From sequence record PQ314493: 44,679 nucleotides of DNA. One strand, 5' to 3'. Shown here in pieces: positions 2,937 through 37,826 of the stretch. Below the pieces are notes generated by a model. It did not search any database and was not told the origin of the DNA. It saw nothing but the letters and a program-made list of their open reading frames with translations. The translations under genes and the position numbers were made by a program. Within the stretch, counting starts at the first letter, position 1. Every line of letters begins with the position of its first letter. Source of the stretch: Escherichia phage vB_EcoS_UALMA_PCEc3.

Positions 2937-3038
2937 CGTCGCGTTGCTAATGTTGGCCAAAGGGTGGAGCTTATACCTCCATAAAGCAATCTCCAGATAA
3001 GAGATGTAACGCAGGTTCGATTCCTGCCGCGACGACCA
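2937..3038 (+). tRNA. atypical tRNA-like RNA (~99 nt + CCA; anticodon unresolved, candidates GAT or TAT)
   Basis: perfect 7-bp acceptor pairing cgtcgcg/cgcgacg, canonical T-arm gcagg-TTCGATT-cctgc, encoded CCA; ~25 extra nt relative to a standard tRNA. Confidence 0.35.
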
Positions 3039-35345: not shown

Positions 35346-36476
35346 ATGGCAACTGCAAAAATTACCAACGAAGAGCTGCGCGAAGAACTGGCAAATGGCA
35401 TGACCAACAAGGCAATCGCAGAGAAGTACGGAATGAACATTCGCAATGTTGAGTTGCGTCGCAGTAAATTGGCAAAATCAGGCGAGCTTCATGGAAACCC
35501 TGGTATCAAGAAGTTAGTCCCTGACGGTTATATGGTCAAAGGAACTTCAACGATGATTGACGCGGCGGGTAATGAAAAGCTTCGCTGGGTTAAAACCTCT
35601 GTAGATAATGAGCGCCTTGAGGTTTTAATGGAGCAAGCTAGAGAGGCATTTTGTTCTGAGCTGCCAAAAGCAGATGCGGTCAGCCACTCAGGCAACGAAG
35701 TTAACTCTGAATTAATGACTCTTTACCCTATTTTCGATATCCATATCGGCATGATGGCGCATCGCCATGAATCTGGTGAGAATTATGACACTAACACGGC
35801 AGAGAAATTAATGGAATCATATTTCGACCATGCAATTTCTGTATCACCTGCGTCAGAGAAAGCCGTTGTTTTAGTTGGCGGCGACTTCCTTCACTCTGAC
35901 GGACTGGAGGCAGTAACTCCAGCAAGTGGTCACTGCCTTGATCAAGATAGTAGATATGCTAAGTTAGTTTATGTTGCAATTCGCTCAATTCGTGGTGCCA
36001 TAGAGAAGATGCTTAAGAAGCATAAGAATGTCGAGATTCAGATTATAGAGGGAAATCATGACCAAAGCGGCATGATCTGGCTTCGCGCTGCAATGGCTGC
36101 ATTTTATGAAAACGAGAATCGCGTGTTTGTTGATACCAGTCCAGCAATCATGCACAAGACGCGATTTGGCTCAACGTTACTTGGTTACACACACGGTCAC
36201 ACGATGAAGAAAGCCGAGGGTCGACTTGCGGCAATGGCGACTGACTACCGTAAAGACTTTGGTGAATGTGAATTTGTTTACTGCCACTCAGGACATTTCC
36301 ATCATGCAACTGTTACAGAGTGCACACTTGGTATTGACGAGGTTCACCCAGCACTGGCCAGTAAGGACGCATATGCCGCACGTGGAGGTTGGCGCTCATA
36401 CCGTCAAGCGGCTGCGATAGTTTACCACAAGAATTTTGGCGAGGTTGGTCGCCATATTTACCGCCCAGGCATGTAA
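35346..36476 (+). CDS. HTH-containing metallophosphoesterase (calcineurin-like, putative)
   Basis: N-terminal HTH-like segment; phosphoesterase motifs GDFLHSDG and GNHDQSG with downstream His-rich segments. Confidence 0.5.
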   Translation: MATAKITNEELREELANGMTNKAIAEKYGMNIRNVELRRSKLAKSGELHGNPGIKKLVPDGYMVKGTSTMIDAAGNEKLRWVKTSVDNERLEVLMEQAREAFCSELPKADAVSHSGNEVNSELMTLYPIFDIHIGMMAHRHESGENYDTNTAEKLMESYFDHAISVSPASEKAVVLVGGDFLHSDGLEAVTPASGHCLDQDSRYAKLVYVAIRSIRGAIEKMLKKHKNVEIQIIEGNHDQSGMIWLRAAMAAFYENENRVFVDTSPAIMHKTRFGSTLLGYTHGHTMKKAEGRLAAMATDYRKDFGECEFVYCHSGHFHHATVTECTLGIDEVHPALASKDAYAARGGWRSYRQAAAIVYHKNFGEVGRHIYRPGM

Positions 36477-36496: not shown

Positions 36497-36550
36497 AGCC
36501 TCAAAGGATTGAGGCAAAATGAATAAACGATAACGAGATGAGGAGTTATA

Positions 36551-37024
36551 ATGATTTACGTATTTGATATTGACGGAACTATAGCTAATAATGAGCATAG
36601 AAATCACCTTTTACCATCCAGTGACCTTCACTTGACTTCAAGTTGGAAGTATTACAATAAAGCCTGTTCTGGAGACTCACCAATAATCCCAATGATAAAC
36701 ATGATGAACAAACTTGCGGAATTATGTCCTGTTTACATAATGACATCCAGAAGTGATGAAGTTGAATGGAGAACCCTTGAGTGGCTTCAGGATAATAAGG
36801 TTGAGTATGATTCGATATACATGAGAAGTCGACATGACAACCGAAAGGATTACAAAATAAAAGAGGGATGGCTTAATGAAATCAGTGGTGGCGATAAAGG
36901 AAGTGTGGTTATTTTTGAAGATAACCCACAAGTAATTAAGCACCTAAGAAGTTGCGGATACACCGTTATGGCTGTATGTGAATATGAAGAACTACCTAAA
37001 GATTGCGAATCTCACGGAGAATGA
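36551..37024 (+). CDS. HAD-superfamily phosphatase (putative)
   Basis: N-terminal DIDGT motif; box copy upstream. Confidence 0.5.
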   Translation: MIYVFDIDGTIANNEHRNHLLPSSDLHLTSSWKYYNKACSGDSPIIPMINMMNKLAELCPVYIMTSRSDEVEWRTLEWLQDNKVEYDSIYMRSRHDNRKDYKIKEGWLNEISGGDKGSVVIFEDNPQVIKHLRSCGYTVMAVCEYEELPKDCESHGE

Positions 37025-37581
37025 AAATGACTAAATTATTTATCCTTAATGGCCCCGCTGGAGTTGGCAAGGACACTATAGCGGATATCATGGTTGAGAC
37101 TGGTGTAGCCAAAGAAAAGGTATCATTCAAGTCACCAATTTTTAACGTTGCAAAAGGAATGCTATCAAGCGATGAATTTGATGGATTCATCAAGAATTAC
37201 GACAATAGAGACTATAAGGAATCACCTCATGGATTTCTTGGAGGTATGACAGTTCGTGAATTTATGATTTGGATTAGCGAGTCTGTAATGAAGCCAGTCT
37301 TTGGTGATGATATTTTCGGTAAAAGGCTAGCCCAGTCACTTGGTTATGGTTGCTACATTTGCGCTGATGGTGGATTTGCTAGCGAGATTAAGCCACTGAT
37401 CTACGCTGGTGTTGAGGTCACGTTAATCAGATTGCATAGGGCAGGGTACACATTTGATGGCGATAGTCGCTCATACATTCACGGGGTGTGCGCAAGAGAA
37501 ATTGATGTTCGTGTTGTTGATTGTGATATTGATGGAACATCAGCATTTGTAAGGCACGTAATAAATAGCACGAATTGCTAA
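37021..37581 (+). CDS. P-loop nucleotide/nucleoside kinase (putative)
   Basis: Walker A NGPAGVGKDT; ATG 37021 overlaps upstream stop (track start TTG 37003); C-terminus NSTNC encoded by box. Confidence 0.55.
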   Translation: MKMTKLFILNGPAGVGKDTIADIMVETGVAKEKVSFKSPIFNVAKGMLSSDEFDGFIKNYDNRDYKESPHGFLGGMTVREFMIWISESVMKPVFGDDIFGKRLAQSLGYGCYICADGGFASEIKPLIYAGVEVTLIRLHRAGYTFDGDSRSYIHGVCAREIDVRVVDCDIDGTSAFVRHVINSTNC

Positions 37582-37649: not shown

Positions 37650-37826
37650 ATGACTAAAATGATTTATTGCACCAAAAACAACTCCAAGACGCTGCCATTT
37701 ACAGTTAACCAGCCGTACAATGCAGAGTATCAAGGTGACGGATACTACAAGATTTATGGCGACGATATGACGTGGATTTTAGCGCCGATTGATGGTTCGC
37801 TGGTTGAATTTATTATCGCAGACTAG
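37650..37826 (+). CDS. hypothetical small protein
   Basis: track ORF 37575..37826; likely start ATG 37650 after cassette leader and RBS. Confidence 0.4.
   Translation: MTKMIYCTKNNSKTLPFTVNQPYNAEYQGDGYYKIYGDDMTWILAPIDGSLVEFIIAD

What the first reader, a model, noticed from the sequence alone, without database searches (positions are those of the whole stretch)
36551..37581. Adjacent HAD phosphatase and P-loop kinase genes: possible split polynucleotide kinase-phosphatase
ORF 36551..37024 starts with the HAD motif DIDGT and ORF 37021..37581 carries a Walker A (NGPAGVGKDT); the two are translationally coupled. Together they resemble the two activities of T4-type polynucleotide kinase/phosphatase used in nucleic-acid end healing, here apparently without an RNA ligase in the window. 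The kinase could alternatively be a dNMP kinase. The HAD gene is noticeably AT-rich relative to its neighbours, suggesting horizontal acquisition.
Basis: partly seen in the sequence, partly recalled or inferred. Interest (0 to 1): 0.45.

Follow-up and report, generated by a model that had tools for sequence, protein, structure and literature searches.

The report
Phage 3'-phosphatase plus dNMP-kinase gene pair
Two neighbouring genes in a T1-like phage encode a phosphatase related to the repair enzyme T4 polynucleotide kinase-phosphatase and a small kinase related to T4 deoxynucleotide kinase; this pair is common, already annotated in such phages, and most likely serves nucleotide supply rather than being a split repair enzyme.

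Summary
Both ORFs are real. The window is the complete genome of deposited phage PP134917.1, a T1-like (Drexlerviridae) genome.

The HAD-then-kinase order recurs widely. It was found in 66 of 80 related phage loci and in T1 itself, and three rare natural fusion proteins carry both domains, so a functional link is likely. The module is dispensable: a close relative lacks both genes. The genome has no ligase.

The pair has already been noted in the Drexlerviridae literature as "PNK + dNMP kinase", with nucleotide supply as the suggested role. No member of the pair has been tested biochemically.

The parts
36551..37024 (+). Gene for a stand-alone DxDxT (HAD) phosphatase of the PNKP 3'-phosphatase type, 157 aa (deposited as WYA87428.1 'polynucleotide kinase', although it has no kinase domain)
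37027..37581 (+). Gene for a compact P-loop kinase of the T4 gp1 (dNMP kinase) family, 184 aa (186 aa if started at the ATG at 37021; deposited as WYA87427.1 'hypothetical protein')
37016..37019 (+). Shine-Dalgarno GGAG for the kinase gene, lying inside the last codons (H-G-E) of the HAD gene
   Evidence: Read directly from the sequence. It is 7 nt upstream of the ATG at 37027.
36540..36545 (+). Shine-Dalgarno GAGGAG for the HAD gene, 5 nt upstream of the ATG at 36551
   Evidence: Read directly from the sequence.
35346..36476 (+). Context: upstream metallophosphoesterase gene, annotated 'DNA repair exonuclease'. In many Drexlerviridae the pair sits immediately downstream of this gene.
   Evidence: PHROG 704 1.4e-151 and a weak Pfam Metallophos hit. 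PMC13164509.
37853..37872 (+). Context: terminator-like GC-rich hairpin with a T-run, after the small DUF7244 ORF (37650-37826) and before the holin. It probably ends the transcription unit that contains the pair.
   Evidence: consensus scan only.

Best explanation
The locus encodes two separate enzymes that form a conserved, dispensable module of T1-like phages. They are translated in tandem. (1) The first is a stand-alone HAD/DxDxT phosphomonoesterase orthologous to the 3'-phosphatase domain of T4 Pnkp. It is expected to work through an aspartyl-phosphate intermediate on D6, with D8 as acid/base, T65 and K104 holding the phosphate, and D124 (with E123) binding Mg2+. It should remove 3'-phosphates from deoxynucleotides, oligonucleotides or DNA ends. 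(2) The second is a compact member of the T4 gp1 dNMP-kinase family, expected to convert 5'-dNMPs to dNDPs with ATP. T1-group phages degrade the host chromosome, reuse its nucleotides, and have no DNA polymerase or ligase of their own. The most likely joint role is therefore to turn host-DNA breakdown products into usable precursors and ends: 3'-phosphate removal by the HAD enzyme and dNMP to dNDP conversion by the kinase. Shown here: the family assignments, the catalytic-residue conservation, the conserved gene order, the natural fusions, and the dispensability of the module. Inferred: the substrates and the salvage role.
For: HAD identity. The catalytic map is taken against T4 Pnkp residues described in PMC3592404, which also records 3'-TMP as a T4 Pnkp phosphatase substrate. 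Kinase identity: same PHROG 139 as T4 gp1; full-length hhalign to gp1 at 92%, against P-loop only for Pnk; 1DEK is the top structural hit; every Foldseek hit at E<=1e-3 is a small-molecule or NMP kinase. Ligand residues of 1DEK listed in PMC10653934 Table 2 map onto invariant family residues in the collinear alignments: R132 to R79, M135 to M82, D175 to D116, E181 to E122, D204 to D148, and 'YDR68' to 'YDxR63'. A gp1-family member, P. putida PP_1964, was shown experimentally to supply dTMP kinase activity. Linkage: in 66 of 80 IMG/VR loci with a kinase homologue, a HAD homologue lies within 4 kb, always upstream on the same strand, and abutting or overlapping in about 26. T1 itself has HAD, a homing endonuclease, then the kinase. 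Three distinct natural fusion proteins carry HAD at the N-terminus and this kinase at the C-terminus, with a conserved linker, as single uninterrupted ORFs on contigs of up to 61 kb. Biology: T1 and TLS degrade host DNA and reuse the nucleotides (PMC11447400). Others have proposed nucleotide supply for this same pair (PMC13164509).
Confidence: 0.55

Rival explanations
1. A functional, non-orthologous 'split PNKP'. The HAD enzyme heals 3'-phosphate (or 2',3'-cyclic phosphate) ends, and the gp1-like kinase has been recruited to phosphorylate 5'-OH ends of DNA or RNA. Host ligase (LigA) then seals the healed nicks, repairing damage caused by host nucleases or defence systems.
For: The HAD protein is a true Pnkp-type 3'-phosphatase with a complete active site. 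The two genes are linked in a conserved way and occasionally fused, in the phosphatase-then-kinase order. That is the kind of coupling seen for the two activities in bona fide PNKPs. The fold alone does not exclude a hydroxyl acceptor.
Confidence: 0.15
2. Two unrelated functions that merely share an operon. The kinase is an ordinary dNMP kinase for dNTP supply. The HAD enzyme independently heals 3'-phosphate DNA or RNA ends, as the stand-alone DNA 3'-phosphatase Tpp1 of yeast does, or acts as a general acid phosphatase, as proposed for phage P1 Pap.
For: 14 of 80 kinase loci have no HAD within 4 kb. In 29 of the 66 loci that have both, the genes are separated by 0.45-2 kb of other ORFs. HAD homologues occur without this kinase in P1-like and T4-like phages. 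OzMSK annotators relate the HAD protein to P1 Pap.
Against: The order and strand are invariant across 66 loci, and three independent fusion proteins exist. That argues for more than chance co-location.
Confidence: 0.2
3. A counter-defence module. The kinase restores dNDP/dNTP pools depleted by host dNTP-degrading defences, and/or the phosphatase destroys a 3'-phosphorylated or 2',3'-cyclic-phosphate nucleotide signal or repairs defence-nuclease damage.
For: The module is accessory and patchily distributed among very close relatives, as is typical of counter-defence genes. The HAD gene is compositionally atypical.
Against: There is no direct evidence. No match was sought or found in defence or anti-defence libraries. 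The pair is old and widespread in the family rather than sporadic.
Confidence: 0.1

Closest known systems
T4 polynucleotide kinase-phosphatase (PseT/Pnkp), C-terminal DxDxT 3'-phosphatase domain (PDB 1LTQ, 5UJ0)
   Different: The window protein is a stand-alone 157-aa phosphatase with no kinase domain. It has a conserved 13-15-residue insertion after motif I that T4 Pnk and Pnkp1 lack, and a conserved disordered C-terminal tail. The adjacent kinase is not homologous to the T4 Pnk kinase domain beyond the P-loop. There is no partner RNA ligase.
T4 gp1 deoxynucleoside monophosphate kinase (PDB 1DEK/1DEL), with its relatives T5 Dnk and P. putida PP_1964
   Same: The kinase falls in the same PHROG family and has a GxxGxGKDT P-loop with the unusual Lys-Asp-Thr. 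It aligns collinearly over its full length, and 1DEK is the best structural match in two methods. Equivalents of gp1 R132, M135, D175, E181 and D204 are conserved.
   Different: It is about 55 residues shorter, because gp1 carries an insertion of roughly 80 residues in the helical domain. Identity is only 17-18%. Arg177 and Lys37 of gp1 have no exact counterparts. Unlike T4, it is linked to a PNKP-type phosphatase gene. Its substrate range is unknown.
Bacterial Pnkp1 of the Pnkp1-Rnl-Hen1 RNA repair complex (PDB 4XRP)
   Different: Pnkp1 is a kinase-phosphatase fusion that works with a dedicated RNA ligase and Hen1. None of those partners is present here.
The 'PNK + dNMP kinase' gene pair already annotated in Drexlerviridae (T1, TLS, KanT1, Webervirus phages); phage P1 Pap
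   Same: It is the same two gene families in the same order. In many genomes the position is also the same, immediately after the exonuclease gene. OzMSK annotators link the HAD protein to P1 Pap.
   Different: Public annotation usually calls the HAD protein 'polynucleotide kinase', which the domain content does not support. The natural HAD-kinase fusions found here were not mentioned in the papers consulted.

Membership tests
PNKP-type DxDxT (HAD) 3'-phosphatase (Pfam PF25109; T4 Pnkp C-terminal domain) | Motif I DxDxT with the nucleophile Asp and the acid/base Asp (T4 Asp165, Asp167) | tested here: met
   D6-I-D8-G-T10. These are invariant in the family alignment and aligned to T4 D165 and D167. 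Their roles are described in PMC3592404.
PNKP-type DxDxT (HAD) 3'-phosphatase (Pfam PF25109; T4 Pnkp C-terminal domain) | Phosphate-contacting Ser/Thr and Lys (T4 Ser211, Lys258) and Mg2+-binding acidic pair (T4 Asp277, Asp278) | tested here: met
   T65, K104 (invariant), and E123-D124 (D124 invariant), aligned. R67 aligns with T4 Arg213.
PNKP-type DxDxT (HAD) 3'-phosphatase (Pfam PF25109; T4 Pnkp C-terminal domain) | Family-level sequence match above the curated cut-off, and the fold | tested here: met
PNKP-type DxDxT (HAD) 3'-phosphatase (Pfam PF25109; T4 Pnkp C-terminal domain) | 3'-phosphatase activity on polynucleotide or 3'-mononucleotide substrates | not testable with these tools
   This needs an enzyme assay.
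Bifunctional T4-type polynucleotide kinase-phosphatase (Pnkp), intact or split | A kinase module homologous to the T4 Pnk N-terminal domain | tested here: not met
Bifunctional T4-type polynucleotide kinase-phosphatase (Pnkp), intact or split | Essential acceptor-site residues Asp35 (general base for the 5'-OH), Arg38 and Arg126 (PMC2831316) | tested here: not met
   The family has no conserved acidic residue at positions 33-36 (V/x-S-F-K). A forced global alignment puts V34 at the Asp35 position. That alignment has no statistical support beyond the P-loop, so this is a weak negative.
Bifunctional T4-type polynucleotide kinase-phosphatase (Pnkp), intact or split | A partner ligase to complete end repair (Rnl1/Rnl2 in T4; Rnl in the Pnkp1 system) | tested here: not met
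   No ligase is annotated in the complete genome. tblastn with T4 RnlA finds nothing. The large unannotated ORFs are a portal, a helicase, a VRR-NUC nuclease and structural proteins.
T4 gp1-type deoxynucleoside monophosphate kinase (PHROG 139; PDB 1DEK) | Family-level sequence relationship over the full length, including the GKDT P-loop | tested here: met
   The window kinase hits PHROG 139 at 1.7e-41 and T4 gp1 hits it at 1.8e-65. hhalign of the 141-sequence profile against gp1 gives 92%, E 6.6e-7, 171 columns. The P-loop reads G-K-D-T in both.
T4 gp1-type deoxynucleoside monophosphate kinase (PHROG 139; PDB 1DEK) | A fold closest to 1DEK | tested here: met
T4 gp1-type deoxynucleoside monophosphate kinase (PHROG 139; PDB 1DEK) | dNMP-binding residues of 1DEK: phosphate ligands K37, R68, R132, R177; sugar M135; base D175, E181; lid D204, H206 (PMC10653934, Table 2) | tested here: inconclusive
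   Conserved equivalents: R79 (R132), M82 (M135), D116 (D175), E122 (E181), D148 (D204), R150 (H206), and R63 in 'YDxR' (R68, offset by one residue). Not matched: R177 aligns with G118, and K37 aligns with F41, with an invariant Lys four residues earlier. The alignments are low-identity.
T4 gp1-type deoxynucleoside monophosphate kinase (PHROG 139; PDB 1DEK) | ATP-dependent phosphorylation of 5'-dNMPs | not testable with these tools
   This needs an enzyme assay or tmk complementation, as was done for PP_1964.

The most novel reading that the evidence does not exclude
The HAD-kinase module, and especially its naturally fused form (P0167, P0296, P0172), may be an uncharacterised bifunctional enzyme system. 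In it a Pnkp-type 3'-phosphatase and a gp1-type kinase would act on the same molecule. One version is a non-orthologous PNKP in which a dNMP-kinase scaffold has been recruited to phosphorylate 5'-OH ends. The other is a nucleotide 'phosphate-repositioning' pathway that converts 3'-phosphorylated nuclease products (Np, pNp, 3'-P oligonucleotides) into 5'-phosphorylated precursors for phage DNA synthesis.
Probability: 0.15. Interest if true: 0.6.

Novelty: already known. Interest (0 to 1): 0.25.

Why it matters
Mostly this corrects annotation. In hundreds of T1-like phage records the HAD protein is labelled "polynucleotide kinase", yet it has only the phosphatase domain. The true kinase next door is a dNMP-kinase relative that is often left as "hypothetical". 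T1-like phages are known to recycle host DNA, but the enzymes responsible are not identified, and this module is a plausible, testable contributor. The rare natural fusions of the two domains suggest the activities are coupled. If experiments showed they act on a common substrate, that would define a new bifunctional nucleotide- or end-processing enzyme. As it stands, the locus is an ordinary member of a pair already described from annotation.

Tried and rejected
- **Kinase against PDB sequences.** A single-sequence search and a 35-sequence profile search gave only P-loop hits. The 35-sequence profile against T4 gp1 also reached only the P-loop. A broader 141-sequence profile built from the exhaustive search was needed to get a full-length alignment.
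- **NCBIfam.** Nothing useful for either protein.
- **Promoter scan.** No enrichment: 8 sites found against 8.2 expected, so no promoter is claimed for the pair.
- **RNA ligase partner.** Searched for and not found.
- **Fusions as assembly or gene-calling artefacts.** Rejected. The ORF in L089 is uninterrupted and carries both domains. Three divergent fused proteins come from different samples and share a conserved linker.
- **5'-nucleotidase role for the HAD protein (like T5 Dmp).** Considered and judged unlikely by inference. Co-translated or fused with a dNMP kinase, it would work against it, and the closest relatives are 3'-phosphatases. This was not tested.
- **5-hydroxymethyl-dU DNA kinase (thymidine hypermodification) role for the kinase.** Considered from memory only and not pursued. 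The genome annotation shows no pyrimidine hydroxymethylase or other modification genes.
- **Literature on the T1-group phosphatase.** Searches found no experimental work.

Full report
**What the window is**

The 3.4 kb around the finding is 100% identical to PP134917.1, 'Pseudomonas phage PsgS01F'. That record is a complete genome of 44,679 bp, exactly the length of the window, which is a rotated reverse complement of it. The same stretch is 96% identical to E. coli phage SU57 and about 90% identical to ACG-M12 and Msk. These are T1-like siphoviruses (Drexlerviridae). Statements about 'the window' are therefore statements about the whole phage genome.

**Checking the observation**

ORF 36551..37024 (157 aa) begins MIYVFDIDGT. 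The following ORF carries NGPAGVGKDT. An ATGA overlap exists at 37021-37024, but the better-supported kinase start is the ATG at 37027.
- A GGAG lies at 37016-37019, which is 7 nt from that ATG and only 1 nt from the ATG at 37021.
- The deposited CDS starts there.
- 34 of 35 aligned homologues begin at that Met.

The two genes are thus separated by 2 nt, with the kinase ribosome-binding site inside the last HAD codons. Coupled translation remains plausible.

The HAD gene is AT-rich, with GC 0.373 against 0.444 for the genome (z -2.3, lowest 2% of equal-sized windows). The kinase gene is less so, at 0.411.

**The phosphatase**

- Pfam assigns it to HAD_PNKP (PF25109) at 57.5 bits against a cut-off of 27.6. 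PHROG 415 matches at 6e-51.
- A 15-sequence family profile hits bacterial Pnkp1 (4xrp) at 1e-14 and the whole phosphatase domain of T4 Pnk (1ltq residues 162-298) at 6e-10. hhalign against T4 PseT, fetched from NC_000866, gives 97.7% probability.

The residues that PMC3592404 describes for T4 Pnkp all have aligned, conserved counterparts in the window protein:

| T4 Pnkp residue | Role | Window protein |
|---|---|---|
| Asp165 | nucleophile | D6 |
| Asp167 | acid/base | D8 |
| Ser211 | phosphate contact | T65 |
| Lys258 | phosphate contact | K104 |
| Asp278 | Mg2+ binding | D124 |

E123 precedes D124, and R67 aligns with T4 Arg213.

There are two differences from T4 Pnk and Pnkp1. One is a conserved insertion of 13-15 residues just after motif I. 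The other is a conserved, low-confidence C-terminal tail. The protein has no kinase domain, so the common database label 'polynucleotide kinase' is a misnomer.

**The kinase**

Pfam and NCBIfam recognise only the P-loop, and PDB sequence searches give nothing beyond it. The informative results are these:
- PHROG 139 ('deoxynucleoside monophosphate kinase') matches at 1.7e-41. T4 gp1, fetched from the T4 record, hits the same PHROG at 1.8e-65. The kinase half of T4 PseT goes to other PHROGs.
- An exhaustive profile search found 4,365 representative clusters for this family.
- A 141-sequence profile built from those representatives aligns with T4 gp1 over nearly its full length: hhalign 92%, E 6.6e-7, 171 columns, window residues 4-181 against gp1 residues 1-238. 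The local match to T4 Pnk is only the 28-residue P-loop (HMMER agrees).

The 1DEK ligand residues tabulated in PMC10653934 were mapped through the collinear alignments:

| T4 gp1 (1DEK) residue | Window kinase | Match |
|---|---|---|
| R132 | R79 | conserved |
| M135 | M82 | conserved |
| D175 | D116 | conserved |
| E181 | E122 | conserved |
| D204 | D148 | conserved |
| H206 | R150 | basic residue kept |
| R68 ('YDR') | R63 ('YDxR') | offset by one residue |
| R177 | G118 | not matched |
| K37 | F41 | not matched; an invariant Lys lies four residues earlier |

The essential general base Asp35 of T4 Pnk (PMC2831316) has no conserved acidic counterpart.

A gp1-family enzyme, P. putida PP_1964, has been shown experimentally to provide dTMP kinase activity. 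I did not test how close it is to this subfamily.

The kinase is therefore best filed as a compact gp1-type dNMP kinase, with moderate confidence about its exact substrate.

**Linkage of the two genes**

tblastn finds the HAD protein in 1,427 phage records and the kinase in 1,446. In many records the two annotations are adjacent.
- Of 80 IMG/VR loci retrieved with the kinase profile, 66 have a HAD homologue within 4 kb, always upstream and on the same strand.
- The two genes abut or overlap in about 26 loci, lie about 100 bp apart in 11, and are separated by 0.45-2 kb in 29.
- The inserted DNA encodes small ORFs of unknown function, or an HNH-type endonuclease, as in T1 itself.

Three distinct proteins carry both domains in one chain, HAD at the N-terminus and kinase at the C-terminus, joined by a conserved linker: P0167 (403 aa), P0296 (413 aa) and P0172 (461 aa). 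They come from different samples, and two are on contigs of 45-61 kb. In locus L089 the ORF is uninterrupted. This argues that the two activities are functionally connected.

The module is nevertheless dispensable. RobRod40, a close relative in the flanking genes, has neither gene anywhere in its genome.

**Context and mechanism**

The genome has no DNA polymerase and no ligase. The large unannotated ORFs are a portal, an SF2 helicase, a VRR-NUC nuclease and structural proteins.

T1 and TLS are reported to degrade the host chromosome and reuse its nucleotides, with the responsible enzymes unidentified (PMC11447400). A 2026 paper on Drexlerviridae notes that 'polynucleotide kinase' and 'dNMP kinase' genes are the commonest genes right after the exonuclease gene, and suggests that they extend the replication module by enhancing nucleotide supply (PMC13164509).

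The best-supported explanation is therefore a nucleotide- and end-processing module: a 3'-phosphatase together with a dNMP kinase that converts dNMP to dNDP. The family assignments, the active-site conservation, the linkage and the fusions are shown here. The substrates and the salvage role are inferred.

A 5'-nucleotidase role for the HAD protein seems unlikely, because a co-translated or fused dNMP kinase would oppose it. That too is inference.

**Rival readings**

1. A non-orthologous split PNKP, in which the gp1-like kinase phosphorylates 5'-OH ends and the host ligase seals them. The fusions and the genuine Pnkp-type phosphatase leave this open. The kinase's affinities and its lack of an Asp35-like base argue against it.
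2. Two independent functions sharing an operon.
3. A counter-defence role, suggested only by the patchy distribution.

None of these can be settled without enzyme assays.

**Verdict**

The gene pair is common, already annotated and already discussed in the literature, so novelty is low. The most useful additions here are:
- the correction of the 'polynucleotide kinase' label;
- the residue-level evidence for both proteins;
- the quantified conservation of gene order;
- the rare natural fusions, which make coupling of the two activities a testable hypothesis.

Noticed in passing
whole window (= PP134917.1): The record is labelled a Pseudomonas syringae phage. Yet it is 96% identical over 3.4 kb to E. 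coli phage SU57 and about 90% identical to other coliphages of the T1-like group. A few near-identical relatives are labelled Campylobacter phages. The host assignment looks doubtful, and T1-like phages are known laboratory contaminants (PMC13164509).
   Followed up: partly
kinase homologues P0031, P0035, P0038, P0049, P0062, P0069, P0075, P0096, P0104 (alignment A1); not the window protein: Many kinase homologues in other T1-like phages end in an acidic tail...DDIPW, DEIPW or DGLPW. This resembles the C-terminal tip of bacterial SSB (from memory, DDDIPF) and could be a docking peptide for replisome or SSB-binding proteins.
   Followed up: no
window 2937-3035 (+): Rfam finds a second tRNA-like gene that is unusually long at 99 nt (39.4 bits, full model coverage). 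It sits next to tRNA-Arg(TCT) at 2853-2930. ARAGORN does not call it. The deposited record calls it tRNA-Ile.
   Followed up: partly
window 36608-36652 (HAD residues ~20-34) and 36995-37021 (HAD C-terminal tail): The stand-alone HAD family has a conserved 13-15-residue insertion after motif I (LLPxxDLHLTSSW) that T4 Pnk and Pnkp1 lack. It also has a conserved C-terminal tail (LPKDCESHGE) modelled with low confidence. The insertion may act as a small cap affecting substrate access. The last codons of the tail contain the kinase ribosome-binding site.
   Followed up: partly
loci L020-L055, L068, L084 (T1): In many Drexlerviridae the HAD and kinase genes are separated by 0.45-2 kb. The inserted DNA holds small ORFs of unknown function or an HNH/homing endonuclease. 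The junction appears to be a hotspot for insertions, while gene order is preserved.
   Followed up: partly
phage records MN850574 (kaaroe), PQ351812 (SFHK24), MZ504878 (Whisky); Some T4-like phages carry a stand-alone HAD that is 45% identical to the window protein. It lies next to the ribonucleotide reductase small-subunit gene, which is a nucleotide-metabolism neighbourhood.
   Followed up: no
window 35346-36476 (+): The upstream 'DNA repair exonuclease' is a metallophosphoesterase with a weak N-terminal helix-turn-helix match (GerE-like). Its function in T1-like phages appears to be uncharacterised.
   Followed up: no
locus L089 (60.8-kb phage-like contig carrying the HAD-kinase fusion): The neighbours of the fusion gene include a PAPS-reductase-like protein and a Dam-type methyltransferase.
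   Followed up: no
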